The position numbers and the translations under genes are program-made. Of a stretch of DNA of 64,000 nt, positions 2,112-53,853 are shown piece by piece (within the stretch, counting starts at the first letter, position 1; each line of letters opens with the position of its first letter). Under the pieces are notes generated by a model, which saw nothing but the letters and a program-made list of their open reading frames with translations, was not told the origin of the DNA and made no database searches. Origin of the DNA: Escherichia phage PGN6866; the sequence record MT127620. The stretch is one strand, 5' to 3'.

Positions 2112-3011
2112 TTATGCCGCCTGACGTGCCGCCATAATTTCAGCCGCTTTACGCAACACTTCTTCCTCTTCTGCTTTCGCCGCTTGTTCGGTACGGGTAG
2201 CAACCGTTGAAGAGATACGACCGCGCAGACTTTCTAACTTCTCCTGCATAGCTGCAACAGTCTTTTCCATTTCATCAGCGTATGAATCGAGTGATTCTAA
2301 TTCCTTGCTTGATGCGTTCATCAGATAATCATCCGAGATCGCTACCGTTGAGGCCGTGACTTTCTTGATGAGTGAATCAAAGGACTTTTTAACCTTCCCA
2401 ACTTCTTCACTCAGGGCGATAGTGTTATCGCTAGTTGCGCCGTTGCGCTCATCAGCCAGTAATTTGGCTTCAATACGGATTGCATTCAAGCGTTCAACTA
2501 AAGCGTAAATATCCTGATTAAAATCTTCCTTGTTTTTCGCCGGAATTTGCAGGTGTGCCGCCACGTTGTCATTACAACCCTTGTAAAAGTTAGGGTTATC
2601 AACTTCAATTTCACGGCCTAAAGCAAAGTTTTCGAAAGCGTTTGACCAGCGAGCGCGGTTTTGTTCCATTTTGGCCTTAATTTGTGCTTCTTTCGCGTCT
2701 TCTTTAGCTTTCGCCTCACCTTCCAGATTAATCCACTTTTTACGACCATTTGCCGCATCGGTGTTAAACTTGATAGGAGTTAAGAAAGTAATTGCAGTGG
2801 CAATCACATCCATATCACGAAAACGTTCAGTTAACAAGAAGTCAACCGCCGTCTGCAATACGTCCAGCTTTTTACCATTACTGCGGAAGTGCTGCAAGTG
2901 CCCTAACAGGAAGTTAGAAACATCTTGTTTGATCGCCGCGTTATTGCTACGAATGTTGTTAGCCAGTGCGTTAAAACCGGATTCGTTAACCAGAGTAAAG
3001 ATTTTTGCCAT
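2112..3011 (-). CDS. hypothetical protein with coiled-coil-like C-terminus
   Basis: ATG at 3011 (MAKIF...) preceded by AGGTGA; the track start at 3020 is a GTG extension. Confidence 0.5.
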   Translation of the reverse strand: MAKIFTLVNESGFNALANNIRSNNAAIKQDVSNFLLGHLQHFRSNGKKLDVLQTAVDFLLTERFRDMDVIATAITFLTPIKFNTDAANGRKKWINLEGEAKAKEDAKEAQIKAKMEQNRARWSNAFENFALGREIEVDNPNFYKGCNDNVAAHLQIPAKNKEDFNQDIYALVERLNAIRIEAKLLADERNGATSDNTIALSEEVGKVKKSFDSLIKKVTASTVAISDDYLMNASSKELESLDSYADEMEKTVAAMQEKLESLRGRISSTVATRTEQAAKAEEEEVLRKAAEIMAARQAA

Positions 3012-4343
3012 GATATTCACCTTTCAATTGTAAGGGCGCTATTGCCCCGCTCTCTATGAGCTTATTTAAGTCACTATTAACTTAACTATAACCACTCGTT
3101 GTTAAGTAGTTATAGGTAAGCGGGGCGGTCTTATCAGGAGTTAACCTTGCCGCCCCCTTATCCGTGATGTTTCATCTGGTATCTTTAATTAGTCGCTATA
3201 AACGAAGCCGACCTGATAGCGATGATCAATCATCACAATAAGGCTATGCGTCCGACTCTATTTAATTACATTGCTGTAACCGTCGGCAATATCGTCTACT
3301 TTGTTTTCGCTCCCGCTTATCCTTTTGTATCAGCTCTCTATCGCTAGTCATCGCCCACTACGGGATACTATTGCGAAAGAGTCACTAACCGCCTAGTATT
3401 CCGGCGTTTTATATCTTTCGGCGGGTTTACTACATAACCCGACTATGTACTTTCATCTTGTGATGAATCTCAAGCCGTTCACATCGTAAACGTTCGCATT
3501 AAACCTTATTGTTAAATAGCAATTTGCCACTTTTTAACCACTCCCCGCCGCTCTCAATTGAGCGTTAATTCGTCGGGCTTGCCTACCCTGATTAACTTCT
3601 TTCACTGTAGCGCCTTGTTAGCGATGACCGCCGCTACCCTTAACCGTGGGCGATTAGCTTAAGTCTTTGCGTACACTCAATGAATCCGTTTATCAGTGGT
3701 GACGTTTCCAGTAAGGGAATGTAAAACTGTTTACCCTGATAATTTAGGGAGTTTTACGCCGTTTTATCTGGTATGTTATCCGATGGTTATTATCATCTAA
3801 CATATTCAACCGATATAGGAGAATGTTTAAATTATTAAAGAGCGGTAAATCTATCAGTGTGCTTTCTCACACTATGCAACTGTTAGCCGTTGTTACGCTT
3901 TTCACTGAAGCGATGATTTGCTTAGTGAGTGCTCATTATGAATCATGTTGTTTTCGCTGTCAACCGCTTTTTAATCTTTTTTCGTCGTTCCCGCTATTGG
4001 GAGGATATATCAATCAGCTTTATTTGATTGAAGATTAAGCGGTGAGGCTTAACTTATGATTCATATTGTTAAAGAGCGTTTTTTAGCCTTTTATAGTGTC
4101 TGCTAATCACTGCATCATTGAAGGCTTACTGATTCATTAACAGGACGCCTAACCCTGAACTACTCGCTGCACTATGTGCCACCTTTCCCGCGATACGTTG
4201 ATTTGGGAACTTGTTAGCGGTGTATCTGCTAACTTGTGGTTAGTATGGACTACTTTAACCACGTTTGCAACTCTTTTTATCATCTTCTTTTAATTCCTTT
4301 CCCTTATCTCGCGTGAATCTATGCGAAAGGGCAAGATGATAAG

Positions 4344-4359
4344 TTTTTAAAGAGCGGGA
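4344..4359. repeat. copy 1 of 15-mer TTTTTAAAGAGCGGG
   Basis: Identical 15-mer also at 4451..4465; shorter TTAAAGAGCG versions at 3835..3845 and 4069..4078. Confidence 0.8.
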
Positions 4360-4450
4360 TTTTTAAGTCATCGCTGACTATGCTCACTATATATCAGGCT
4401 GTTTTCGGTGTCAATACTCTTTTTGAGAATATTTTCACTTTCTAGCCTGA

Positions 4451-4465
4451 TTTTTAAAGAGCGGG
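4451..4465. repeat. copy 2 of 15-mer TTTTTAAAGAGCGGG
   Basis: Direct reading. Confidence 0.8.
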
Positions 4466-4692
4466 GGCAAGTTTCCTTGCCTTGTATGTTTTACATCGTA
4501 CCCGATGAATTGAAGTATACATTAACCAATGATGGTTGCAATAGGGTAAAGCAAATTATTTTAAACTTTTTTATAGTGGGATAGATAAAAGAACGGGCGC
4601 GCGTGATACATCATAGGAAACGGCTTGTAAAGCAACAATAAGCGTCCTAAAACGCATCACAACGAGCTAAAAGGGAGTAAGGCATACAATCA

Positions 4693-4726
4693 CCTCATAA
4701 AAGAGAAAAGCCTCACTAGGAGGCTT
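4693..4726 (-). terminator. putative rho-independent terminator (minus strand)
   Basis: 7-bp stem AAGCCTC/GAGGCTT 4708..4726 followed by T-rich run on minus strand, downstream of gene 4802..5176. Confidence 0.4.
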
Positions 4727-4801
4727 ACAGGAAGGATTAGAGAATCAGATAAATTATGACCATAGGCATGACTACGGCACAATACAGGAGAAAGATTAAG
4801 C

Positions 4802-5176
4802 CTATGGATTTACACATTGACCGTTACCGGATGCCATTTCATTCATGGACTCATCAAAGAGCGTCAACGATGAGCGCATCAAGTGATCGACCGTAATTTG
4901 CTTACCAGTGGTTTCATTTACCAGTTGAATAGTTTTATCATATGATTGTACATGTTCAAAATCATTTACATGTAAAATAATAACCTTAGGTGACTTTTTA
5001 CCAGTTTCATAGTTTTCTACAATATAGGTGCACTGTAAACCGTCAACCGTAGCAGGGGAGAACGTTGCAGCCTTAACGCTACCCATAGCCGACAGCAGGA
5101 CACCTAACAGGAGAACGACAAGGAAGAAGCCTACAAATACTTTCACTACGAATTTAATAATACCCATGATAATCAA
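4802..5176 (-). CDS. membrane-anchored hypothetical protein
   Basis: 124 aa; N-terminal hydrophobic segment FVVKVFVGFFLVVLLLGVLL. Confidence 0.45.
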   Translation of the reverse strand: MIIMGIIKFVVKVFVGFFLVVLLLGVLLSAMGSVKAATFSPATVDGLQCTYIVENYETGKKSPKVIILHVNDFEHVQSYDKTIQLVNETTGKQITVDHLMRSSLTLFDESMNEMASGNGQCVNP

Positions 5177-5266
5177 CCTTTAGTTAGAGAATGTAAGAAT
5201 ACAGCATATCAGCGACGAATAACGCCACCGTAGCAACGAACAAGCAACGCCAAAAATAATCATGAA

Positions 5267-5542
5267 TCATTGGTTGCTATCCTCGCCAAAAAATGATACG
5301 CTGATTTGTTCCACTTCTTCCAGCGACAGAAGAATCCCGCGTTGGGCTAAATACTTCCCAATAGTTAGATAATCTTGCACTAAGCAGACAATAGGAAAGC
5401 GTATATTTTGTATCTCACCTTTGGAAAGAAAAGACAAATAACCAACGTCGGTTGATTCATCAAAGGATAGTGTAACGCCACCGTAATTATGCGTGTCAAT
5501 CAGCGCAATAGTTTCATTCCCCATAACGTTTCCAATCCTCAT
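5267..5542 (-). CDS. hypothetical protein
   Basis: 91-aa ORF; true start may be the internal Met at 5524. Confidence 0.35.
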   Translation of the reverse strand: MRIGNVMGNETIALIDTHNYGGVTLSFDESTDVGYLSFLSKGEIQNIRFPIVCLVQDYLTIGKYLAQRGILLSLEEVEQISVSFFGEDSNQ

Positions 5543-5744
5543 AATGATTAACTAGTGCCTGATAATCGTCAGATGATAACTCACCGCCTAAATAGGCAAC
5601 GGTTATGCGTGCTTTGTATTCTGACAAATTGCATAGCGCGGGAGCGGATAACCTGCTTTCGCCATAACATCCTAGCACTTCAACGATACAACCGTTTAAA
5701 GATACTGATTTATTAATCACGATACGGTTAGCCATTAATATCAT
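5514..5744 (-). CDS. hypothetical protein
   Basis: 76-aa ORF, short overlaps with neighbours. Confidence 0.35.
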   Translation of the reverse strand: MILMANRIVINKSVSLNGCIVEVLGCYGESRLSAPALCNLSEYKARITVAYLGGELSSDDYQALVNHYEDWKRYGE

Positions 5745-5991
5745 CCTTAATTAGCCCATGATTGAGCAGGTTAGCCAGCGACAAATCACCGTCAATATAG
5801 ATTGATTTGAAATCTTCACGGGTAATTTCGAAATCAGCAAAGGCTAGCCAATCTTTAAGAGGCTGATATTCCATCCTGCAAAAAGTGATAACAGGCAAGA
5901 TTATCTGACCATCAAGTGTATTAAACAGGATAGATTGCCCACCAACAAAACAAGAAAAGCCGTTTGATAATTTAACTTCTTTGATAGCCAT
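5728..5991 (-). CDS. hypothetical protein
   Basis: 87-aa ORF. Confidence 0.35.
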   Translation of the reverse strand: MAIKEVKLSNGFSCFVGGQSILFNTLDGQIILPVITFCRMEYQPLKDWLAFADFEITREDFKSIYIDGDLSLANLLNHGLIKDDING

Positions 5992-6016
5992 TTTTACACT
6001 CCTGAAAATAGGTTAT

Positions 6017-6508
6017 TTATTTACTAGCCTTAATACAGTTGGCTAAATTAACGTGAACGGTATAAACAGCGTTATCAGCGTTATTGTAAACAGTTGTGGC
6101 GATCATTGACTCATTAACTGGGCCATAGCTCACAAGATTGGTAACAGCTTTAACGTCTTTGTAACGTTGTACAGTGCCAAATGTCACCATGTCCGCATCG
6201 TTATCAGTACGCTTGAGAACTAGATCATTGTTAGGCTGATTATCTAACGTTTTAGATTGAAAGAGAACGCCATTATTAGTAACGTTGCTAAATTTCATCT
6301 TTAGCACAATGGTAGTGCCGTCACTATCCGCACCGTTGCAAATCATCCAACCTTTGTTGATGGAACTAACGAAAACACTAGCCGCATCAGTTGCAGGAGC
6401 AGGACTAGCAACAGCCTTGTCAGAAAGAGATGTGACCAGTGCACTAACACCAATCGCTGCAACCAGTGCATAACTTGCCAGATTAACTACCTGCATTGAT
6501 TTAGCCAT
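6017..6508 (-). CDS. secreted hypothetical protein (signal peptide)
   Basis: 163 aa; N-terminal hydrophobic signal-like segment then Ser/Thr/Asn-rich body. Confidence 0.5.
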   Translation of the reverse strand: MAKSMQVVNLASYALVAAIGVSALVTSLSDKAVASPAPATDAASVFVSSINKGWMICNGADSDGTTIVLKMKFSNVTNNGVLFQSKTLDNQPNNDLVLKRTDNDADMVTFGTVQRYKDVKAVTNLVSYGPVNESMIATTVYNNADNAVYTVHVNLANCIKASK

Positions 6509-6561
6509 TTGTGAAGCCTCTTTGATATGTATTAGATAGGGATATAATAGGACACGATTTC

Positions 6562-6753
6562 CTACATTGCAACCATCTTTCTAACTTTCTTGTTACTGAA
6601 TTTAGCGCCGGTAAACTTACTCGTCTTATCTTTCGGGTTTAGCTTGCTATCGGTGAACAACTCGACCACTTCACAAGCAATCAGGGCAAGCAAAGGAAGC
6701 ACTACAGCCATGACCATCATAATCAGGACAACCATTTCTATTACTCCAACCAC
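6562..6753 (-). CDS. small membrane protein
   Basis: 63 aa; strongly hydrophobic N-terminus, basic C-terminus. Confidence 0.4.
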   Translation of the reverse strand: MVGVIEMVVLIMMVMAVVLPLLALIACEVVELFTDSKLNPKDKTSKFTGAKFSNKKVRKMVAM

Positions 6754-7418
6754 TCAATCGATAGCTTCAATTTACTACTACTTAATAAGGAAAGCAAGTG
6801 CCACGGGTAAACTATTTCTACTATCTATATAGGACGGGGAACACACAACCGCAGAACAGACCACGGGGAAACATAGCAAGATAGTGCGGTAGTAATATAC
6901 CACTTAAATAATTAGTTAACTATTAATAGCATTACTCAAACATCAAAGACCATTCGCTACGCTCATGTACGCTGAAAAAAGAAGTAATAAAAGAAACAAT
7001 AAACATCAAACATAATCTTTCCACTTAATTAATACATACATCATTATTGCACTCATAATCATTACTATTGAAACTATTATCAACGTAACTATGGGGGAAT
7101 GGGGTAGTAACTAGGGGGTATTATTAGCTTATTCATAGTGCCTTAATCTAATCATTATACAGTGCTAGCCTTTCTCTCACTCTTTAAAGGGGAACTAAAT
7201 AAACGGGTAGGTAATGTATTGGGTAGTATACACGGGGAAAGAATAACGGGGAGTAGGCACGGGGAAAGGTGGAACGTTGAAAGGGAAGGTAAAGGCATTG
7301 CCAATAACCCTTTTTTAAATGAGGACTCCCCCTTTTTAGGAAACACGCGGGAAGCGGCTAGCCCCATTCGGTCAAATCAGAATTTTAAACTCTTATATAT
7401 AAGGTTGAAAGAGAACTT

Positions 7419-7586
7419 ATGTGGAAAATTAAGTTAATCATTAAGCAATTCAAATGTGATCATGAGTACTATCGGATACGCAAAGCTTACGGGGATGAAA
7501 GAGTTCACACCCTTTATAAGTCCACTTGGAGATGTAGTAAATGTGGCAAGCTTAAACACAGCACATGGATGGACAGACCTTAACGT
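7419..7586 (+). CDS. small zinc-ribbon-like protein (55 aa)
   Basis: ATG at 7419; MWKIKLIIKQFKCDHEYY...WRCSKCGK; weak Shine-Dalgarno; below track cut-off. Confidence 0.3.
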
Positions 7587-7625
7587 GACATGGCCTTAAC
7601 ATGAGGGTGCCTTAACATGAAGTCC
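7578..7625. repeat. three direct repeats CCTTAAC(A/G)TGA at 16-bp spacing, followed by CCTTTA-type repeats to about 7730
   Basis: CCTTAACGTGACATGG / CCTTAACATGAGGGTG / CCTTAACATGAAGTCC read directly. Confidence 0.7.
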
Positions 7626-7736
7626 CCTTTATGACATGCCCTTTACTTCAGCGTACACGGGTTGTTGGTATGAAGTGGCCTTTACGGGTAGGTCTTATGA
7701 TGTGCCCTTTATACTCTTATTCAGAGGAGAAGAATT

Positions 7737-7991
7737 ATGGATTTAGTATTAGACTTTTTATCAGAGATGGTGCCTCGGTTCAGAACAGAGACATACGCTT
7801 TCGTAATCAACAGTGACTCTGAAGAAGGGATGGAAGCTACATGCTTAGGTCGTCTTGTTGATTTAGATGATGAAACAGATTTCGATATTACAATTGATGT
7901 AAGTAGTTTTGGTTGGCTCTTCTTCAGAGCATTCCGCACTTACAGAAAAGAAACATACAAAGATTACAGCAAGGGAGATACAAATGAATAA
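7737..7991 (+). CDS. hypothetical acidic protein
   Basis: Shine-Dalgarno GAGGAG upstream; first gene of rightward block. Confidence 0.45.
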   Translation: MDLVLDFLSEMVPRFRTETYAFVINSDSEEGMEATCLGRLVDLDDETDFDITIDVSSFGWLFFRAFRTYRKETYKDYSKGDTNE

Positions 7992-8616
7992 TCCAATAAC
8001 CGCAGTGAATATGGAAGGTGTTTATGGAGGTAGTTTCCCTTCTGGTTCTCCTTTCCACACTAAAGCGATGGACCTTAACGATTACAATTCACAGCTATGT
8101 CGCTCTGGTTGCAGCTTACAGCATTTAGAAACTATGGGAAATGTTTCAGGCTTAGCTGTACAAGATTTATATAGTGGAAGTATTCTTAAACCAAATATTA
8201 CGGAGAACAAAAATATGTTAGATTTGATTCATACTACTCGTCCTAATTCTAAAACTAAAACACAACCATCTACTCTGGAAGTAGTTGAATATGAATCTAC
8301 TAAACACGATCACCTCCCTGACTATGCTCGTGCAATGATTGAGATGATTGAAGAAGCTGAATATGAAATGCTCCATGATTACATTACCTCCAAAGATGAA
8401 TGGCATCGTGATGTTCGAATCGAAGAGGATGGTACAGAAACAATTACGTGGATTCACAAGAGTGAGCTAGTAGACGACGCACTGCGAGACTACGAAAAAT
8501 TTTTGGTCGACGGCTCTATTCTTTTAGAGGAAGAGAAGGGTGCAGAACTTCCGTGGGAAGGTGAGACGATTGCTCTTGGTAAGATGTTTAACCTGTCCGT
8601 TGGTGATTGTAAGTAA
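7984..8616 (+). CDS. hypothetical protein
   Basis: ATG at 7984 with AGGGAGA upstream, ATGAATAA overlap with upstream stop; track start 7909 is an extension. Confidence 0.5.
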   Translation: MNNPITAVNMEGVYGGSFPSGSPFHTKAMDLNDYNSQLCRSGCSLQHLETMGNVSGLAVQDLYSGSILKPNITENKNMLDLIHTTRPNSKTKTQPSTLEVVEYESTKHDHLPDYARAMIEMIEEAEYEMLHDYITSKDEWHRDVRIEEDGTETITWIHKSELVDDALRDYEKFLVDGSILLEEEKGAELPWEGETIALGKMFNLSVGDCK

Positions 8617-8621
8617 TATTT

Positions 8622-8650
8622 GCCTCCATTGGGAGGCTTTTTGTGTTGTT
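8622..8650 (+). terminator. putative rho-independent terminator
   Basis: GCCTCC-ATTG-GGAGGC hairpin followed by TTTTTGTGTTGTT. Confidence 0.5.
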
Positions 8651-8672
8651 GATAATGTAGAAGGAGTATAAA

Positions 8673-9146
8673 ATGTTTGGAGAAAACGGAGAACTCACGC
8701 CTGCACAGGTAGCTGAGATTACAGGAAGATTACCCGGAGTAACGGAAGAACTTGAAGGCCGTGGTATGAACCCAAGCAATGGGAAGTTTCAAAAGGGAAA
8801 TAAATTCGGACGACCCAGAGGTAGTAGAGGTAAACTGACACAATTAATGTTGGACCGTGTTGCTGCAAGTCATTTGTCTCCTGATGAAGTGTTAATTCAA
8901 ATTTACGAAGATCCTAATATTCCACCTGATCTTAGATTCAAGGCTGCATCAAAAGTTGCAGATCTGGTATATCCTAAGGCGGCCTCTGTTGAAGTTAAGA
9001 TTGAGGAAGAGAATGTAATCAACGAAGAATCATTGAATGCACAAATCAAGGACTTCTTGACTGGAGCACTTGGTATCGACGTTATGCCTCCAGAAGAAGA
9101 CAACTCTGAGGACGCTGAAAAGGGGGAGGAAGCGGACGAGAGTTAA
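8673..9146 (+). CDS. putative terminase small subunit
   Basis: 157-aa basic N-terminus and acidic C-terminus, immediately upstream of large terminase; positional inference. Confidence 0.4.
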   Translation: MFGENGELTPAQVAEITGRLPGVTEELEGRGMNPSNGKFQKGNKFGRPRGSRGKLTQLMLDRVAASHLSPDEVLIQIYEDPNIPPDLRFKAASKVADLVYPKAASVEVKIEEENVINEESLNAQIKDFLTGALGIDVMPPEEDNSEDAEKGEEADES

Positions 9147-9307: not shown

Positions 9308-10849
9308 ATGTCATTAGATAAACAAATTTATGAAGCTCTAACTGGTAACAACCTTAGTGTAGAGGAAAAGAAAGCACTATTGAATATGTTGAAAGAGCGT
9401 GACCAATGGAGGAAGTATAATAAGATTTTGTCTTTCAAGGCGTATGACTTCCAAAAGAAATTTTATGCAGCAGGATTGAAGCATCGCTTTAGATTCTTGT
9501 GTGCAGCGAACCGTGTTGGTAAATCTTATAGCGAGGCATACGAGTTTGCTTGTCATGTCACAGGTCGCTACCCAACTTGGTGGACAGGATATAAATTTAA
9601 AAGACCTATCTTAGCATGGGCAGTTGGTATTACAGGGGATTCCACAAGGAAAGTATTGCAAAAGGAATTGTTTGGTACACCTATCGGAAAGGATACAAAT
9701 TTATTAGGGACAGGTGTCATTCCTCGTGATGCTATCGTCATTGACACGATAGAACGAGATGGTAACAAACTTCAAATCGTACAAATCAAACATCAAAACG
9801 AAAGAGGAGAGTTTGACGGTTTAAGTACATTAGAATTCCGTTCAACCCAACAGGGTGAACACACATTGATGGGTGCAACAGTTGACTACATTTGGTTAGA
9901 CGAAGAAGATCCATACGAGTCTATGGCTATATTCGCACAGTGCGTCACACGTACACTCACAACTAAAGGTCTAGTTACAATTACAGCTACACCAGAGAAC
10001 GGTTTAACTGAACTGGTAGATAAATTTATGAAAGGTGAAGGGGATGAGAACACAGGTTCTCTGTATTTCCAGAATGCTTCTTGGTGGGATGCTCATGCAG
10101 ACCTAGGTGGACACATCACTGACCAAGATATAAAAGATATGACTGAAGGTATTCCAGCGTGGCAGTTAGAGATGCGTTCGAAAGGTATGCCATTGTTAGG
10201 AAGTGGTTTGATTTATGATGTATCGGATGACACAATTAAATGTGAACCATTCGAAATTCCTGATACGTGGAAACGTGTCTGTGCAATTGATATTGGTATT
10301 GATCACCCAACTGCTGCTGTTTGGACAGCTTACGATGCAAACACGGATACTATCTATGTTTACGACTCATATAAAGAAGGTGGCTTTACTCCAGTGTATC
10401 ATGCTCCAGCTATTAATGGTCGTGGTCAGTGGATTCCTGTCATCCTGCCGCACGATGCGGACAATATTGAGAAAGGTAGTGGCTCATCTGTTGCTCAATT
10501 CTATAAGAATGCAGGAGTTAACGTACAGAGTGAGACCTTCTACAACAAAATTGGAATGGATGGTAAAAAGAACTTCTTTGTAGAACCCGGAATCACAGAT
10601 ATCCGAGAAAGAATGATGAGTGGACGCTTTAAAATCTTTAACACAGCCGCTAATGCTAAGCTATTCGAAGAGAAAGCTAGATATCACCGTAAGGTTGGTA
10701 AGATTATTAAAGAACATGATGACTTAATGGATGCGATGCGCTATTCAGCGTGCTCTGTTACACATCGTGGTCGCTCTAAACATGACGTTAGCTACGGAAG
10801 TGCTTCTCTGTATGAGGCAAACGTAAGCAGATGGAATCAGAGTTACTAA
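9308..10849 (+). CDS. terminase large subunit
   Basis: 513 aa; Walker-A-like NRVGKS, Walker-B-like DYIWLDEED, nuclease-type acidic residues; precedes portal. Confidence 0.8.
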   Translation: MSLDKQIYEALTGNNLSVEEKKALLNMLKERDQWRKYNKILSFKAYDFQKKFYAAGLKHRFRFLCAANRVGKSYSEAYEFACHVTGRYPTWWTGYKFKRPILAWAVGITGDSTRKVLQKELFGTPIGKDTNLLGTGVIPRDAIVIDTIERDGNKLQIVQIKHQNERGEFDGLSTLEFRSTQQGEHTLMGATVDYIWLDEEDPYESMAIFAQCVTRTLTTKGLVTITATPENGLTELVDKFMKGEGDENTGSLYFQNASWWDAHADLGGHITDQDIKDMTEGIPAWQLEMRSKGMPLLGSGLIYDVSDDTIKCEPFEIPDTWKRVCAIDIGIDHPTAAVWTAYDANTDTIYVYDSYKEGGFTPVYHAPAINGRGQWIPVILPHDADNIEKGSGSSVAQFYKNAGVNVQSETFYNKIGMDGKKNFFVEPGITDIRERMMSGRFKIFNTAANAKLFEEKARYHRKVGKIIKEHDDLMDAMRYSACSVTHRGRSKHDVSYGSASLYEANVSRWNQSY

Positions 10850-10910: not shown

Positions 10911-13154
10911 ATGGCTAAGCAAAAATATAGTGAAGAGGTGTTGGACGAGTTACGTGTTGACCTTCAACGTCGTTTTAATTACGCTCAAGGTTACGTGGAC
11001 ATGGCTGTTAAGGGCTATGCTCGTGAAGCTTGGGAATATTTCTATGGTAACTTACCTGCACCAGTAACTGCTGGCAGCTCTAGTTGGGTAGATCGTACTG
11101 TTTGGGAATCTGTTAACGGTACATTGCAAGATATTATTAACGTATTCTGTTCTGGTGATGAAGCAGTTACTTTCGTAGCTGACAACCAACAGGATTCTGA
11201 TGCTGCTGATGTAGCAACTAAATTAGTTAACCAAATTCTTCTGCGTGATAATCCGGGATACAATATTATCTCTTCTGCTGCACAAGAATGTCTAGTTACT
11301 CGTAACTCTTTTATCAAGTATTATTGGGATGAACAAACTTCTACTCAAACTGAAGAAGCTGAAGGTGTACCACCGGAAGCATTGGCTGCATATGTTCAGG
11401 GATTAGAAGCTGGTGGACTCAAGAATCTGGAAGTCTTCACTGAAGAAAATGAAGACGGTACAGTCGATGTTAAAGTTACTTACGAACAAACTGTTAAACG
11501 TGTGAAAGTTGAATATGTTCCTTCAGAGCAAATCTTTGTTGATGAACATGCTACCTCTTTTGCAGATGCACAATACTTCTGTCATCGTGTACGTCGTTCT
11601 AAAGAAGATCTGGTTGCTATGGGCTTCCCTAAAGATGAGATTGAAGCATTCAACGACTGGACAGACACGATGGATACCACTCAATCTACAGTTGCTTGGT
11701 CTCGTACTGACTGGCGTCAGGACATTGATGCTGATATTGGTACAGATACCGAAGATATCGCTTCTATGGTTTGGGTTTATGAGCACTACATCCGTACTGG
11801 TGTTCTAGATAAGAATAAAGAGTCTAAACTCTATCAGGTTATTCAAGCTGGTGAGCATATCCTTCACACTGAAGAAGTAACTCACATTCCGTTTGTAACC
11901 TTCTGCCCGTATCCGATTCCGGGTTCCTTCTATGGTCAATCGGTCTATGACATTACGAAAGATATTCAAGATTTACGTACCGCGTTAGTTCGTGGTTATA
12001 TTGATAACGTCAACAATGCTAACTATGGTCGATACAAGGCTCTTGTTGGTGCATACGATCGTCGCTCTCTGCTTGATAACCGTCCCGGTGGAGTGGTTGA
12101 AATGGAACGTCAGGACGCTATTGACCTGTTCCCATACCATAACCTACCTCAAGGTATTGACGGCCTCCTAGGCATGTCTGAGGAGCTTAAAGAGACACGT
12201 ACAGGTGTAACCAAACTAGGCATGGGTATCAACCCTGATGTGTTTAAGAATGATAACGCTTATGCAACCGTAGGCTTGATGATGAATGCTGCACAGAACC
12301 GCCTCCGTATGGTATGTCGTAACATTGCTCACAATGGTATGGTTGAATTGATGCGTGGTATTTACAACCTTATCAGAGAAAATGGTGAAGTTCCTATCGA
12401 GGTACAAACCCCTCGTGGTATGATTCAGGTAAACCCAAAACAATTACCAGCTCGTCACAACCTCCAAGTTGTTGTAGCTATCTCTCCTAATGAGAAAGCA
12501 GAACGTGCACAGAAACTGATTAGCTTGAAACAGCTGATTGCAGCAGATGCACAGTTAGCGCCTCTCTTTGGTTTGGAGCAAGACCGTTACATGACTGCAC
12601 AGATCTTTGAGTTGATGGGCATTAAGGACACACATAAATACCTTCTGCCTCTGGAACAGTATCAGCCTCCAGAACCTTCTCCGATGGAAATCCTCCAGCT
12701 CGAGATGACTAAAGCACAGGTTGAGAACGTACAGGCTTCTTCTCAGAAGATGATTGCTGATGCATTCGACCAACGTGAACGTACTACATTCGAACAGCAG
12801 AAAGCTGCGGATGAATTAAGTCTACGTCAGGAAGAGTTGCAATTCAAGCAAGAAAATGCAGCAGATGCAATGACTCTGGAAAACCGTAAAGAAGATAACA
12901 ATGCTACTCTGGAACAAGCTAAGCACAAGTTAGCTCTTATGCAACAGCAGGTCCGTCAGTATGAATCTATACTGAAAGAATTGCAGATGGTTATGTCTCA
13001 TCAGGTAGACCAAGAGAAGATTGTTCAGCAAGCTCGTGTTCAGGATAAAACTTTGGAACTCCAAAAGAAAGAAGCTAATGTAACTAAGAAAGAGCAACAA
13101 GCTTCTCTCAAAGATTCACGGATTCCAGGCAAACGTCTTGGAAGTAAAAACTAA
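10911..13154 (+). CDS. portal protein
   Basis: 747 aa directly after large terminase, C-terminal Q/E-rich coiled coil; size and position. Confidence 0.7.
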   Translation: MAKQKYSEEVLDELRVDLQRRFNYAQGYVDMAVKGYAREAWEYFYGNLPAPVTAGSSSWVDRTVWESVNGTLQDIINVFCSGDEAVTFVADNQQDSDAADVATKLVNQILLRDNPGYNIISSAAQECLVTRNSFIKYYWDEQTSTQTEEAEGVPPEALAAYVQGLEAGGLKNLEVFTEENEDGTVDVKVTYEQTVKRVKVEYVPSEQIFVDEHATSFADAQYFCHRVRRSKEDLVAMGFPKDEIEAFNDWTDTMDTTQSTVAWSRTDWRQDIDADIGTDTEDIASMVWVYEHYIRTGVLDKNKESKLYQVIQAGEHILHTEEVTHIPFVTFCPYPIPGSFYGQSVYDITKDIQDLRTALVRGYIDNVNNANYGRYKALVGAYDRRSLLDNRPGGVVEMERQDAIDLFPYHNLPQGIDGLLGMSEELKETRTGVTKLGMGINPDVFKNDNAYATVGLMMNAAQNRLRMVCRNIAHNGMVELMRGIYNLIRENGEVPIEVQTPRGMIQVNPKQLPARHNLQVVVAISPNEKAERAQKLISLKQLIAADAQLAPLFGLEQDRYMTAQIFELMGIKDTHKYLLPLEQYQPPEPSPMEILQLEMTKAQVENVQASSQKMIADAFDQRERTTFEQQKAADELSLRQEELQFKQENAADAMTLENRKEDNNATLEQAKHKLALMQQQVRQYESILKELQMVMSHQVDQEKIVQQARVQDKTLELQKKEANVTKKEQQASLKDSRIPGKRLGSKN

Positions 13155-21920: not shown

Positions 21921-22139
21921 ATGAAAATGATGAAACAAGCTGCATACGGTTTAATATGTTTAGGCGCAGGTGTTGTGGTGTCGACCGCAGTTCCTGTAGG
22001 CGCAGTTCATCCATTAGTAACTGTCCCTGCTCCAGTAGAGAAGCTTAGTTCTCAATGTAAGCAGAGAACAATTCAAAATAACTTAGTTGTTATTTGCCCT
22101 GATGCTGAATCTAACGCTCTGAGAAAGATACTACCTTAA
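21921..22139 (+). CDS. small membrane/secreted protein (holin or signal-anchored candidate)
   Basis: 72 aa, one N-terminal hydrophobic segment, directly upstream of lysozyme. Confidence 0.35.
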   Translation: MKMMKQAAYGLICLGAGVVVSTAVPVGAVHPLVTVPAPVEKLSSQCKQRTIQNNLVVICPDAESNALRKILP

Positions 22140-22168: not shown

Positions 22169-22660
22169 ATGGATAACGTCGCATTGCCACCTGTACAACT
22201 AAACTTAAGCCCAGCGGGAATGGAATTCATCATGAAGCATGAGGGTATGAGAACCAAGGCTTATAAAGATTCCGCAGGTATCTGGACTATATGTGTAGGG
22301 GCTACGCGCGATATGAATGGTTATCCGGTTAGACAAGGATTAACGTATTCTATAGAGGATTGTCTAGCTCTGCTAGATAGAGACACACAAGACTCTGTTC
22401 GTGCTACTCAGAAGAACATAAAGGTTCCTTTACTAGTTCATGAGTTTGATGCACTCACTTCTTTCAACTTCAACGTTGGCAGTGGGGCTTTGAGCACATC
22501 TAAGTTAAGGAAGGTAATCAATGGAGATGTTAAGGGGGATGTTTATTCCGAATTTCTTCGTTGGGATAAAATAACGGTCAAGGGAGAGAAGCAGAGAAGT
22601 CAGGGTCTTCATAATAGAAGAGTTGCAGAAGCTAATCTTTACACCGAAGGTAAATATTAA
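22169..22660 (+). CDS. lysozyme (glycoside hydrolase family 24-like)
   Basis: 163 aa; MKHEGMRTKAYKDSAGIWTICVGAT and FNVGSGAL motifs. Confidence 0.8.
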   Translation: MDNVALPPVQLNLSPAGMEFIMKHEGMRTKAYKDSAGIWTICVGATRDMNGYPVRQGLTYSIEDCLALLDRDTQDSVRATQKNIKVPLLVHEFDALTSFNFNVGSGALSTSKLRKVINGDVKGDVYSEFLRWDKITVKGEKQRSQGLHNRRVAEANLYTEGKY

Positions 22661-43820: not shown

Positions 43821-43988
43821 TCATACTTCTTCCTTGTATTCCCAATTTCTTTCATAATACCCAGAGTTATAGTTTAGGGCGCACTTCTCGGCCTCTTCTA
43901 TGTCGTCAGTGTTTAGGATATTTACCCATCCTCCAACTTCATCAAAACCTTCTTCTACTTCGTTAAACCATACACTATACTTTTTCAT
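43821..43988 (-). CDS. hypothetical protein
   Basis: Start MKKYSVWF in ATGA overlap with upstream stop. Confidence 0.35.
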   Translation of the reverse strand: MKKYSVWFNEVEEGFDEVGGWVNILNTDDIEEAEKCALNYNSGYYERNWEYKEEV

Positions 43989-44161
43989 CGAGAAGTTCTT
44001 CCCCAATCTTTTACATAGCATCGACCGTTAACCCACTTTGTCTCTGACTTAAATTCCTGAGACAATCTCACTTCACAGTCTTCTCTACTGGCATCTCCTC
44101 CGATATCAATCAGATACAGGAAAAGAGCTATACCTAAAGCCCAAAGAATTATCTTTTTCAT
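43985..44161 (-). CDS. small secreted/membrane protein (58 aa)
   Basis: Hand-translated MKKIILWALGIALFLYLIDIGGDASREDCEV...; ATGA overlap with upstream stop; below track cut-off. Confidence 0.35.
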   Translation of the reverse strand: MKKIILWALGIALFLYLIDIGGDASREDCEVRLSQEFKSETKWVNGRCYVKDWGRTSR

Positions 44162-45698: not shown

Positions 45699-47543
45699 TT
45701 AGTGTGTGTGCATCCAGTTAAGTCCAATCTGACAATCAGATGCCAGAGGACATTCCATGTTCAGATACTCGCCAGCTTTCTTAACACAAAGCTCAGTGTG
45801 CTCTTTGAGTTTCTGTACATCATTACGGTTTACTGAGAATTGACCTTCATCGTGCATATCAATTACCTTAGCACAACGAACCTTATCTTTCTCAATCCAC
45901 TTGTTAAGGAACATCATAGCATATTTCATAACAACAGCACCAGCACATTGCAGGAGTGTGTTAAGGGCTTTATGAACCATAACCTTACCAGTGGCATCCC
46001 GTCTCATTGTAATCTTACGACCATCAACTCCAATCAAGTATCCTTGAGCAGCTTTCTCTGTCATACGATCAATGAGGATTGCAATACATGGGTTCTCTGC
46101 TAAGAAACGTGCTCGCATCACTGAACCTTCGTCAGCCCCACCACCTACAATTGAACCAAGCTTAGCGTCACCAGCACCATAGTTGAATGCGTAGATAAAC
46201 GTCTTAGCGTTGTCACGAGTAGGAAGACCAGCAAGTTTCTGGTTGTGGGAGTGGATATCACCTTCAAGGAGAATATCACGATACATAATAGCAGAAGCTA
46301 AACCACGTTCTGCCAGAGCTTTCTTAGCTGGGTTGTTCTCTTCGATTGCCTCAGCAAGCATATCCCTACACTCTTTAATGAGGTAGTGAGCGAGCATACG
46401 AAGTTCAAGTCCAGAACCATCATACCCTAAGAATACTTCTTTACCAGCGGGTATGTAATATTTGTAAGCACCTACAGGTTTGTCTTTCTTCCCCGGCTTA
46501 CCTTTCTCGTAAATTACGTTAGTACCTTTTCGTATATAACAACCATCAGGAACAACGTTAGTAATAACGAAAGGACGAGAGTGATCACTGTCTGAGTTAT
46601 AGTCAGACTCAAACAAACTGCGACACTCGTGACCAAACAAACCACGGGAGGGAATATTAACCACGATACGATGTTTGAATCGAAAAGTTGGCGTAGCGCA
46701 GCTGTTAGCTTCTGCCGAAAGTTTACCATCTTCGCGTTCCTTTGCTATAAGTCCACTGATAAGACCCAGCCTGTGAGCCGCTACAACGCGTCTCTTAAGC
46801 AAACTTCCGACACTCCCTAGCTCACCCCCTAACCCTTCTTCAAGAGTCTCCTCGAGGTTTGTAGGAGCTGTAGGCCACTTGTTTGATGTGGCTAGTGCTT
46901 TCTTAATCTCATCAAACGTTACAGGATTACGTCGATTAGGGTTTAATCCCAAACCAAATACGTAAGCCTTCATATAGTTCTTAGTTTTAAACCTAAAATG
47001 CTTTTCTAAGAACTTCTTAATATCAGCGTCAACCATCTCGGCTGTCTGTTTTTGCTTAGCATTACCTCGCATCCAAGCAGTATACCATGCTTGGTATGTT
47101 CCATACTTTCTCATATCTTTCTTAATTTCGAAAGTATTCCAAGGCTTCTTAGATACGTTAAACTCTGGAGGAAGAAAGCCCTCATCCATAAGAGCTTCTT
47201 TAACTCGTGCATCTTTCGATGGGTCAAAGTCTACGTATTCGACACAGGTGAAAGCTCCACCAATATCTTCTCTCTTCAGCCCAACCCTATCACAATAGGC
47301 TTGAGGCCACTTCTGTAAAGCTCCAGACTTCTTAAACGGCTTCATATAAGTAGAGCCATCTAATCTCATCTTAGGTAAGAGAGGAATCAGTTCTTTGTCA
47401 ATATTAACAATAATCTCTTTAAGGAGGTGAACATACCACCGAGCATTTCTTCGGTTGAAACTCACTCCGTGCTTTGCTTGCTTAGAGATTATATCAGCGA
47501 CAGTCATCTCTGTCAAAAATGGAAGAGCGTCCGGGTTGCTCAC
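45699..47543 (-). CDS. DNA polymerase family A, polymerase domain only
   Basis: 614 aa; motif A LGYDGSGLELRMLAHY, motif B RDNAKTFIYAFNYGAGDAKLG, motif C IDMHDEG; GTG start after AAGGAG; no exonuclease motifs. Confidence 0.85.
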   Translation of the reverse strand: MSNPDALPFLTEMTVADIISKQAKHGVSFNRRNARWYVHLLKEIIVNIDKELIPLLPKMRLDGSTYMKPFKKSGALQKWPQAYCDRVGLKREDIGGAFTCVEYVDFDPSKDARVKEALMDEGFLPPEFNVSKKPWNTFEIKKDMRKYGTYQAWYTAWMRGNAKQKQTAEMVDADIKKFLEKHFRFKTKNYMKAYVFGLGLNPNRRNPVTFDEIKKALATSNKWPTAPTNLEETLEEGLGGELGSVGSLLKRRVVAAHRLGLISGLIAKEREDGKLSAEANSCATPTFRFKHRIVVNIPSRGLFGHECRSLFESDYNSDSDHSRPFVITNVVPDGCYIRKGTNVIYEKGKPGKKDKPVGAYKYYIPAGKEVFLGYDGSGLELRMLAHYLIKECRDMLAEAIEENNPAKKALAERGLASAIMYRDILLEGDIHSHNQKLAGLPTRDNAKTFIYAFNYGAGDAKLGSIVGGGADEGSVMRARFLAENPCIAILIDRMTEKAAQGYLIGVDGRKITMRRDATGKVMVHKALNTLLQCAGAVVMKYAMMFLNKWIEKDKVRCAKVIDMHDEGQFSVNRNDVQKLKEHTELCVKKAGEYLNMECPLASDCQIGLNWMHTH

Positions 47544-53673: not shown

Positions 53674-53853
53674 TTATGCAGTCAGGAGGTGAAGCAGGAA
53701 TGGGATAACAACAGCTACGATAACCATGATGGTTGATGCTGTTTGAATCTCACCTTTCTTATCAGGAGTTTCTTCAATAAGCTTACCAGAAGCCCAATAA
53801 ATACCACCACCAATAAAGATAGCCCAAATACCCCATACGATTGCTGATAACAT
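53674..53853 (-). CDS. small two-TM membrane protein (59 aa)
   Basis: Hand-translated MLSAIVWGIWAIFIGGGIYW...IMVIVAVVIPFLLHLLTA; AAGGA upstream; replaces track ORF 53715..53987. Confidence 0.4.
   Translation of the reverse strand: MLSAIVWGIWAIFIGGGIYWASGKLIEETPDKKGEIQTASTIMVIVAVVIPFLLHLLTA

What the first reader, a model, noticed from the sequence alone, without database searches (positions are those of the whole stretch)
4802..6753. Early-type cluster of small secreted and membrane proteins
Six co-oriented genes encode mostly short proteins with N-terminal hydrophobic segments or a signal peptide (4802..5176, 6017..6508, 6562..6753). In lytic phages such clusters often carry host-takeover, superinfection-exclusion or envelope-targeting functions.
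Basis: inference. Interest (0 to 1): 0.4.

Follow-up and report, generated by a model that had tools for sequence, protein, structure and literature searches.

The report
Early phage operon of exported proteins
This is a real but fairly ordinary early gene cluster of a phiEco32-like E. coli phage: it sends two small barrel-shaped proteins into the space between the cell membranes and makes three tiny membrane peptides, probably to alter or guard the infected cell's envelope, though no function has been tested.

Summary
The window is a Kuravirus (phiEco32-like) genome. The finding is the ortholog of phiEco32 genes 128-125 / SU10 CDS125-121. This is the first leftward transcription unit next to the 193-bp terminal repeat, it ends at a conserved intrinsic terminator, and the literature classes it as early.

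The six ORFs are real, with dN/dS of 0.07-0.4. I add two conserved mini-genes of 28 and 26 aa, which makes eight genes. Five of the eight have hydrophobic N-termini.

o163 and o121 are export-signal proteins. Each mature domain has two invariant cysteines and is confidently predicted as a small 8-stranded beta-barrel. Relatives carry different export signals on the same domains, which argues strongly for a periplasmic location. Three genes (87, 73, 85 aa) encode small acidic cytoplasmic proteins.

No protein has a homolog outside Gordonclarkvirinae. The PHROG labels 'terminase' and 'polymerase' are spurious.

The operon is accessory and mosaic. The window's allele lacks both the canonical strong promoter of phiEco32 gene 128 and the 127-aa cytoplasmic domain fused to gp128 in phiEco32.

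The function (superinfection exclusion or envelope targeting) is inference only. Interest is modest: an ordinary kind of feature built from orphan folds.

The parts
6562..6735 (-). o57: 57-aa single-pass membrane peptide with an N-terminal transmembrane segment and a Lys-rich C-terminal tail. It belongs to one allele only and is found in 13 phage records.
   Evidence: GGAG RBS 8 nt upstream of the ATG. Annotated with the same 174-nt extent in O18-011 and MN05. phrog_7482, E = 7e-14. pN/pS is 0.26 in this frame against 1.41 and 0.83 in the other frames.
6017..6508 (-). o163: exported protein. Export signal 6508..6407 (A-V-A|S motif); mature 129-aa domain 6406..6020 with invariant Cys57 and Cys158. 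Ortholog of the C-terminal 163 aa of phiEco32 gp128.
5728..5991 (-). o87: 87-aa acidic soluble protein (pI 4.5). Ortholog of phiEco32 gp127. The PHROG label 'polymerase' is spurious.
   Evidence: AGGAG RBS. phrog_14176 matches but there is no Pfam, NCBIfam or PDB hit. dN/dS 0.17-0.40. Found in 76 phage records.
5514..5735 (-). o73: 73-aa soluble protein whose start overlaps the o87 stop by 8 nt. Present in only 20 phage records.
   Evidence: The coding signal among close relatives is inconclusive (13 nonsynonymous against 1 synonymous change), but full-length homologs at 43-49% identity exist.
5267..5524 (-). o85: 85-aa acidic soluble protein (pI 4.2). Ortholog of phiEco32 gp126. Overlaps o73 by 11 nt.
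   Evidence: phrog_16976 aligns from residue 7 of the longer ORF. dN/dS 0.07-0.45. Found in 77 records.
5184..5270 (-). o28: 28-aa hydrophobic mini-protein (MIHDYFWRCLFVATVALFVADMLYSYIL). Its start overlaps the o85 stop (ATGA).
   Evidence: Conserved in 11 of 12 loci examined. pN/pS is 0.21 in this frame against 0.73 and 1.40 in the others. Annotated in Bas91. In P0096 the same N-terminus is fused to the o121 mature domain as its export signal.
4802..5167 (-). o121: exported protein. Hydrophobic signal or anchor 5167..5069 (V-K-A|A motif); mature 88-aa domain 5068..4805 with two invariant Cys. Ortholog of phiEco32 gp125. The PHROG label 'terminase' is spurious.
4737..4817 (-). o26: 26-aa hydrophobic mini-protein (MCKSIGLIFLLYCAVVMPMVIIYLIL). 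It overlaps the last codons of o121 and ends just before the terminator.
   Evidence: Conserved in 9 loci. pN/pS is 0.11 in this frame against 7.9 and 0.55 in the others, measured over the part that does not overlap o121.
4698..4726 (-). Intrinsic terminator that closes the operon: AAGCCUC-loop-GAGGCUU followed by a U-run.
   Evidence: free energy -12.1 kcal/mol, z = -2.0. The stem is conserved and the loop varies across 11 related loci. Annotated as a terminator in SU10 (S2 Table).
6544..6902 (-). Candidate sigma70 promoters, weak evidence only: an extended -10 TGgTATATT at 6902..6894; TTGCTT-17-TAAATT at 6797..6771; TTGCAA-17-TATTAT at 6572..6544.
   Evidence: The extended -10 element is conserved in all 8 aligned relatives. 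The 9/12 match comes, and matches of that quality are no more frequent than in shuffles. The TTGCTT-17-TAAATT site (7 of 12 matches) was read by eye from the sequence and the alignments. The canonical TTGACA-16-TATAGT of phiEco32-type alleles is absent here.
7167..7359 (.). Context: the counterpart of the 193-bp direct terminal repeat of phiEco32. The operon is the first leftward unit inside the right genome end.
   Evidence: Both phiEco32 genome ends align to these coordinates. The terminal repeat is described in PMC4281155 and PMC9965538.

Best explanation
This is the terminal early operon of a Kuravirus, orthologous to phiEco32 genes 128-125. It is a compact, translationally coupled, terminator-bounded unit of eight small genes lying just inside the right genome end.

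Shown here:
- Two products (o163 and o121) carry N-terminal export signals followed by small 8-stranded beta-barrel domains, each with two invariant cysteines. This is the signature of Sec-exported, disulfide-bonded periplasmic proteins.
- Three products (57, 28 and 26 aa) are single-pass membrane peptides.
- Three products (87, 73 and 85 aa) are small acidic cytoplasmic proteins.
- The operon is accessory and mosaic within Gordonclarkvirinae and has no relatives elsewhere.

Inferred:
- The operon is expressed by host RNA polymerase immediately after DNA entry.
- The exported barrels bind a periplasmic or outer-envelope target. Candidates are a component of LPS/O-antigen receptor display, or part of the DNA-ejection/peptidoglycan-breaching apparatus of an incoming phage.
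- The membrane peptides act on the inner membrane.
- Together they alter or protect the infected cell's envelope, through superinfection exclusion or receptor masking, in the manner of T4 Imm/Sp or T5 Llp.

My confidence in the anatomy and localisation is about 0.85. My confidence in the envelope-protection/exclusion function is about 0.35. The single score given is for the whole statement, function included.
For: Identity and position: megablast and annotation place the window in Kuravirus. The cluster aligns to phiEco32 genes 125-128 and SU10 CDS121-125. The literature gives one sigma70 promoter upstream of this unit, a terminator after it, and early class (PMC4281155; PMC8948821; PMC9965538).

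Operon structure: RBSs and 4-17-nt gene overlaps, and a conserved terminator. No gp36-type TAATGTATA motif lies upstream on this strand.

Genes are real: dN/dS of 0.07-0.4, and frame-specific purifying selection on the mini-ORFs.

Export:
- Conserved n-h-c signals with A-x-A or V-x-A motifs and two invariant Cys per mature domain.
- The same domains occur behind three different export signals in each family. For o163: the window type, the classical signal MNKANFVIGALVLTFGSMAIA|D in P0103, and an internal transmembrane segment after a 127-aa cytoplasmic domain preceded by a Lys-rich stretch in phiEco32 and P0104. For o121: the long anchor, the classical SU7-type signal, and the o28-derived signal in P0096.

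Enrichment of hydrophobic N-termini: P = 0.003.

Accessory and fast-evolving: record counts are 93, 86, 77, 76, 20 and 13 out of about 98. The Bas93 clade keeps only two of the genes. Between phiEco32 gp128 and P0104 the periplasmic barrel is 41% identical, against 71% for the cytoplasmic domain. That pattern is expected for a domain facing a variable external partner.
Against: No experiment or homology links any of the eight proteins to exclusion or to any other function.

The window's allele lacks the strong promoter of phiEco32 gene 128, and only weak promoter candidates remain. Timing and expression level in this phage are therefore unverified.

Signal-peptide calls are by inspection, as no SignalP or TMHMM was available. 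The long h-region of o121 and the Ala/Gly/Ser-rich h-region of o163 could be uncleaved anchors rather than cleaved signals.

Three of the eight genes are cytoplasmic and need not share a function with the exported ones.

SU10 proteomics did not detect CDS121-125, which says nothing either way about expression in infected cells.
Confidence: 0.4

Rival explanations
1. The exported barrels are periplasmic inhibitors of peptidoglycan hydrolases, comparable to PliC/MliC or functionally to T4 Spackle. They would protect the infected cell from lysis-from-without or from the cell-wall-degrading ejection proteins of later-arriving phages. This is a specific sub-case of the best explanation.
Against: There is no Pfam MliC hit at E <= 1. 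About 57 other folds rank above PliC. The conserved inhibitory loop motifs of PliC/MliC, recalled from my own knowledge, are not visible in alignments A1 and A2.
Confidence: 0.12
2. This is a general host-takeover or fitness module unrelated to exclusion. The mini membrane peptides and the cytoplasmic proteins would perturb host membrane energetics, transport, division or defence. The periplasmic barrels would bind a small ligand, lipocalin-like, or modulate an envelope stress or uptake system to favour phage production.
Against: No family match of any kind. The rapid divergence of the periplasmic domain relative to the cytoplasmic domain fits a variable macromolecular partner better than a conserved small ligand.
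Confidence: 0.25
3. The module regulates lysis timing. The exported domain would act like T4 RI, an antiholin that senses superinfection in the periplasm, or the mini peptides would act as holin or antiholin-like factors.
For: The products are an exported small domain and small single-pass peptides. The Ala/Gly/Ser-rich hydrophobic segment of o163 is reminiscent of signal-anchor-release sequences (the resemblance is from my own knowledge).
Against: The unit lies in the early region, far from the late lysis module (PMC9965538). The only other strongly hydrophobic small ORFs are elsewhere, for example 21921-22139. There is no PHROG lysis annotation. The folds are beta-barrels, which by my recollection differs from RI.
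Confidence: 0.08
4. The ORFs are mis-called or are housekeeping or structural genes, as the database labels 'terminase' and 'polymerase' suggest.
For: phrog_13168 is named 'terminase' and phrog_14176 'polymerase', and these labels are copied into many GenBank records.
Against: The proteins are 121 and 87 aa, with no terminase or polymerase domain in Pfam, NCBIfam or PDB. o121 has an export signal and a beta-barrel fold. The true TerL (Terminase_6N/6C) is at 9308-10849 and the DNA polymerase A at 45699-47543.
Confidence: 0.01

Closest known systems
phiEco32 genes 125-128 / SU10 CDS121-125 (terminal early operon of Kuravirus)
   Same: These are orthologs: 66-96% amino-acid identity to the phiEco32 products and up to 96% to other relatives, in the same order, with the same terminator and the same position next to the terminal repeat.
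   Different: The window, like NJ01, O18-011 and MN05, carries a different 5' allele. It has no TTGACA-16-TATAGT promoter and no 127-aa cytoplasmic N-domain fused to gp128. A separate 57-aa membrane peptide sits there instead. The papers I could read do not mention export signals (0 occurrences of 'signal peptide' or 'transmembrane').
T4 Imm/Sp, T5 Llp, P1 Sim (early envelope-located superinfection-exclusion proteins of virulent or temperate coliphages)
   Same: These are small, early-expressed phage proteins targeted to the inner membrane or periplasm. They are accessory and lineage-specific. This comparison rests on my own knowledge.
PliC/MliC periplasmic lysozyme inhibitors and other minimal 8-stranded barrels (calycins, avidins, the Cap15 barrel)
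   Same: They share the overall fold: a small up-and-down 8-stranded barrel. PliC/MliC also share the periplasmic location.

Membership tests
phiEco32-type terminal early operon (genes 125-128) | Orthologous proteins in conserved order, next to the right terminal repeat | tested here: met
   tblastn gives 66-96% identity to the phiEco32 products (up to 96% in other relatives), with synteny and terminal-repeat alignment.
phiEco32-type terminal early operon (genes 125-128) | Intrinsic terminator after the gp125 ortholog | tested here: met
   Hairpin 4726..4708 plus U-run, conserved in 11 loci.
phiEco32-type terminal early operon (genes 125-128) | Strong sigma70 promoter (TTGACA-16-TATAGT) upstream of the first gene | tested here: not met
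   Present in phiEco32, SU10, Bas91, EP335, SU7 and L007. Absent from the window, MN03 and NJ01 alleles. Only weak candidates remain.
phiEco32-type terminal early operon (genes 125-128) | Early (pre-shut-off) transcription by the host sigma70 holoenzyme | not testable with these tools
   Known for phiEco32 only through secondary citations. The primary paper (Pavlova 2012) is not held.
Sec-exported periplasmic proteins | N-terminal positive n-region, hydrophobic h-region, and small residues at -3/-1 | tested here: met
   o163 has ...SDKAVA|SP and o121 has ...GSVKA|A. The -1/-3 residues are invariant. Classical short signals are seen in P0103 and in SU7-type homologs. This was done by inspection, not with SignalP.
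Sec-exported periplasmic proteins | Actual translocation, cleavage and disulfide formation | not testable with these tools
   This needs PhoA fusions, N-terminal sequencing and a test of DsbA dependence.
Lipoprotein-type exclusion proteins (T5 Llp, Cor) | Lipobox [LVI][ASTVI][GAS]C at the signal cleavage site | tested here: not met
   The window signals contain no Cys. The SU7-type 'LAVC' has Val at -1 and sits at residues 5-8.
MliC/PliC lysozyme inhibitors | Pfam MliC (PF09864) profile match | tested here: not met
   No hit at E <= 1 for the full-length or the mature sequences.
MliC/PliC lysozyme inhibitors | 8-stranded periplasmic beta-barrel | tested here: inconclusive
Lipocalin/calycin | Pfam lipocalin profiles and structurally conserved regions | tested here: not met
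Terminase / DNA polymerase (PHROG labels) | Terminase or polymerase catalytic domains | tested here: not met
   No such domains. The genuine TerL and PolA are elsewhere in the window.

The most novel reading that the evidence does not exclude
o163 (gp128) and o121 (gp125) would found two orphan families of phage periplasmic beta-barrel effectors. They would block a step specific to O-antigen/LPS-dependent podophage entry, either by masking or remodelling the receptor or by neutralising the ejection nozzle or the wall-degrading proteins of a superinfecting phage. The long form of gp128 (cytoplasmic domain, transmembrane segment, periplasmic barrel) would couple a periplasmic event to a cytoplasmic response. 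The three conserved mini-peptides would be previously unannotated membrane co-factors.
Probability: 0.25. Interest if true: 0.55.

Novelty: new member of a known kind. Interest (0 to 1): 0.3.

Why it matters
Kuraviruses are common therapeutic candidates against pathogenic E. coli, yet their early genes are almost entirely uncharacterised. If these exported barrels and mini-peptides mediate exclusion or receptor masking, that would affect how such phages behave in cocktails, and it would add a new structural class to the short list of known envelope-acting phage proteins.

In practical terms, the work corrects the propagated 'terminase' and 'polymerase' mis-annotations, adds two unannotated conserved mini-genes, and shows that the first early gene exists in fused and unfused forms with different promoters.

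Tried and rejected
- Sequence homology gave nothing outside Gordonclarkvirinae and no functional name. I tried Pfam, NCBIfam, PADLOC, PHROGs and PDB sequences for all eight proteins. I also ran a word-indexed search of 5.8 billion proteins for o163 and o121 and an exhaustive HMMER search of 1.84 billion representatives for o163.
- I tested whether o163 and o121 are paralogs. hhalign gives probability 0.2% and blastp finds nothing. The shared fold and Cys topology therefore remain unexplained.
- I looked for the canonical phiEco32 gene-128 promoter in the window and it is absent. The remaining promoter-like matches are no better than chance.
- I looked for a gp36-type motif upstream of the operon and found none on its strand.
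- Rfam and tRNA scans of the whole window found nothing.
- The primary phiEco32 papers (Savalia 2008, Pavlova 2012) are not held.
- An upstream hydrophobic ORF (MIMSAIMIYVLIKW...) that is intact in relatives is truncated by a frameshift in the window. Other hydrophobic ORFs in alternative frames occur by chance in this T-rich DNA, so I did not count them as genes.
- I could not check the Cys-Cys distance in the models because coordinates are not exposed.
Full report
**What the window is.** Megablast of 4000-8000 finds 98 phage records, almost all from Escherichia or Shigella, at 88-94% identity. Those with taxonomy are Gordonclarkvirinae/Kuravirus. The window is circularly permuted relative to phiEco32. 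Both phiEco32 genome ends align to window 7167..7359, so this stretch is the counterpart of the 193-bp direct terminal repeat (the repeat is described in PMC4281155 and PMC9965538). Genes run rightward from about 7700 (packaging and structural genes: TerL at 9308-10849, SU10-type portal at 10911-13154) and leftward from about 6750.

**What the finding corresponds to.** The six minus-strand ORFs are the orthologs of phiEco32 genes 128, 127, (an unannotated 73-aa ORF), 126 and 125, and of SU10 CDS125-121.

[quoted passage not shown] - The cluster is therefore a separate, terminator-bounded first early transcription unit. The main early cluster starts beyond a 1.8-kb ORF-free spacer. In the window that spacer holds TTGACA-17-TATAGT (4414..4386) and TTGACA-17-CATAAT (3963..3935).

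**Checking the observation.** The ORFs are present.

- RBS positions and relatives' annotations move two starts: o121 starts at ATG 5167, and o57 at ATG 6735, which has a GGAG RBS and the same 174-nt CDS in O18-011 and MN05.
- The middle genes overlap their neighbours by 8 and 11 nt, which indicates translational coupling.
- Nei-Gojobori comparisons with up to 12 related loci give dN/dS of 0.07-0.40 for o57, o163, o87, o85 and o121.
- o73 has only 14 substitutions among close relatives (13 nonsynonymous), so that test is uninformative. Full-length homologs at 43-49% identity exist.
- Kyte-Doolittle maxima for the three named ORFs are 3.08, 2.06 and 2.94. Only 6 of 92 putative genes in the window reach 1.8, and three of those lie in this cluster (P = 0.003).

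**Two further genes.** Both are conserved hydrophobic mini-ORFs that belong to the operon.

- o28 (5270..5184) has a start that overlaps the o85 stop (ATGA).
- o26 (4817..4737) overlaps the end of o121 and stops just before the terminator.
- For each, the substitution pattern across 9-10 loci shows purifying selection only in the annotated frame. pN/pS is 0.21 against 0.73 and 1.40 for o28, and 0.11 against 7.9 and 0.55 for o26.
- This control matters because the T-rich DNA also yields chance hydrophobic ORFs in other frames.

**The exported proteins.** o163 begins MAKSMQVVNLASYALVAAIGVSALVTSLSDKAVA|SPAP. In 28 homologs the residues at -3 and -1 and two cysteines (C57, C158) are invariant. o121 begins MGIIKFVVKVFVGFFLVVLLLGVLLSAMGSVKA|ATF, again with an invariant -1 residue, V or H at -3, and two invariant cysteines.

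The strongest argument for periplasmic localisation is comparative, because each mature domain occurs behind three different export signals.

- For o121: the long hydrophobic segment of Kuravirus, a textbook signal peptide in the SU7 clade (MKIKLAVCAALFAVSSVSHA|A), and an o28-derived N-terminus in P0096.
- For o163: the window type, a textbook signal in P0103 (MNKANFVIGALVLTFGSMAIA|D), and an internal transmembrane segment in phiEco32, SU10, Bas91, EP335 and P0104. That segment is preceded by a Lys-rich stretch and a 127-aa soluble N-domain, giving a 287-290-aa bitopic protein.

Neither protein has a lipobox. Whether the window's signals are cleaved or act as anchors cannot be decided here.

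In each model the first strand carries one Cys and the C-terminus the other, which is compatible with a barrel-closing disulfide. I could not measure the distance. Profile-profile comparison finds no relation between the two families. BFVD returns only Gordonclarkvirinae homologs plus one weak hit to an uncharacterised coliphage protein.

**No known family.** Pfam, NCBIfam, PADLOC and PDB sequence searches are empty for all eight proteins. PHROGs gives only family numbers without function, apart from the names 'terminase' (o121) and 'polymerase' (o87). Those names are unsupported. The proteins are 121 and 87 aa, have no such domains, and the true TerL and DNA polymerase A lie elsewhere in the window. 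An exhaustive HMMER search of 1.84 billion representatives finds only five clusters for o163, all from this phage group.

**Mosaic, accessory character.** tblastn against 50,697 phage records finds the following:

| Gene | Phage records |
|---|---|
| o163 | 93 |
| o121 | 86 |
| o85 | 77 |
| o87 | 76 |
| o73 | 20 |
| o57 | 13 |

- The small-genome clade (Bas93) keeps only o57-like and o87-like genes.
- MN05 retains only the signal-peptide part of o121.
- The segment just upstream of the o163 signal is allelic. The phiEco32 type has 628 bp carrying the TTGACA-16-TATAGT promoter, an RBS and the 127-aa N-domain in frame. The window type has 347 bp carrying o57 instead. MN03 has neither.
- The N-domain also exists as a stand-alone PHROG (phrog_15368).
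- Between phiEco32 gp128 and the Suseptimavirus-like P0104, the N-domain is 71% identical, the transmembrane segment 77% and the periplasmic barrel 41%. The outward-facing part evolves fastest.

**Promoter caveat.** Because the window's allele lacks the canonical phiEco32 gene-128 promoter, early expression here is inferred.

- Candidates are an extended -10 element (TGgTATATT, 6902..6894) conserved in all eight aligned relatives including the divergent EP335, TTGCTT-17-TAAATT (6797..6771), and TTGCAA-17-TATTAT just upstream of o163 (6572..6544).
- Matches of this quality are not more frequent than in shuffled sequence.
- No gp36-type TAATGTATA motif lies upstream on this strand.

**Interpretation.** What is established:

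- It is a compact, conserved-boundary but internally mosaic operon at the genome end.
- It encodes two periplasm-directed disulfide barrels, three mini membrane peptides and three small acidic cytoplasmic proteins.
- All eight are orphans.

What is inferred: immediate-early expression and an envelope-directed role. Gordonclarkvirinae depend on O-antigen and probably the LPS core, and they build an elongating nozzle to cross the envelope (PMC11990801; PMC9509320 abstract). An early periplasmic binder could mask or remodel receptor display, or neutralise incoming ejection or wall-degrading proteins, as T4 Imm/Sp and T5 Llp do by other means (my own knowledge).

The faster divergence of the periplasmic domain fits a variable partner. 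Rivals are a PliC-like hydrolase inhibitor, a general host-takeover or ligand-binding role, and lysis-timing control. None can be excluded, and none has specific support.

**Verdict.** The feature is an ordinary kind of phage module made of orphan proteins. I rate it as a new member of a known kind, of modest interest.

Noticed in passing
window 3021-4801: A 1.8-kb ORF-free spacer lies between the operon's terminator and the next leftward gene (2112-3020, the gp124 homolog). It holds two near-consensus sigma70 promoters on the minus strand (4414..4386 and 3963..3935). It also holds four copies of TT(A/T)TTAAAGAGCGG (at 3832, 4066, 4344 and 4451) and an exact gp36-type TAATGTATA at 4524..4516 (-). 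There is no Rfam family or tRNA. What the rest of the spacer does is unknown.
   Followed up: partly
window 6834-7495 (- strand): Six of the seven YCCCCGT sites in the whole 64-kb window fall in this 660-bp stretch in and around the terminal repeat, all on one strand. They are conserved in relatives. This may be a packaging, ejection or replication signal.
   Followed up: partly
window 7578-7711: Short direct repeats lie between the terminal repeat and the first rightward genes: TCATGTTAAGG twice plus a variant, and TTATGAYRTGCCCTTTA twice. These are possible operator or binding sites.
   Followed up: no
L004 (phiEco32) 7945-8817; P0104; window 6487-6834: The first early gene is dimorphic across the subfamily. 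The long form is 287-290 aa (127-aa cytoplasmic domain, transmembrane segment, barrel) and has its own strong promoter. The short form is 158-166 aa. The cytoplasmic domain is 71% identical between genera, against 41% for the barrel. The N-domain also exists as a stand-alone PHROG (phrog_15368).
   Followed up: partly
P0096 versus window 5184-5270 and 4802-5167: In one lineage the o28 mini-protein sequence is fused in frame to the o121 mature domain and replaces its signal. This shows that hydrophobic N-termini are exchanged within this operon.
   Followed up: partly
window 4802-5167, 5728-5991, 7909-8616: Functional names propagated in public records are unsupported by any domain search here: 'terminase' for the gp125 homolog, 'polymerase' or 'DNA polymerase B region' for the gp127 homolog, and 'ABC transporter' for the phi32_5 homolog.
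   Followed up: yes
window ~6932-7053 (- strand): A hydrophobic ORF (MIMSAIMIYVLIKW...) is open for 33-48 aa in relatives but is broken by a frameshift in the window, so it is probably not a gene. It is a reminder that this T-rich region produces chance hydrophobic ORFs.
   Followed up: partly
window 21921-22139 (+), 43985-44161 (-), 53674-53853 (-): These are the only other putative genes in the window with a strongly hydrophobic segment (72, 58 and 59 aa). The first lies in the late region just before the ORF at 22169-22660 and may be a holin.
   Followed up: no
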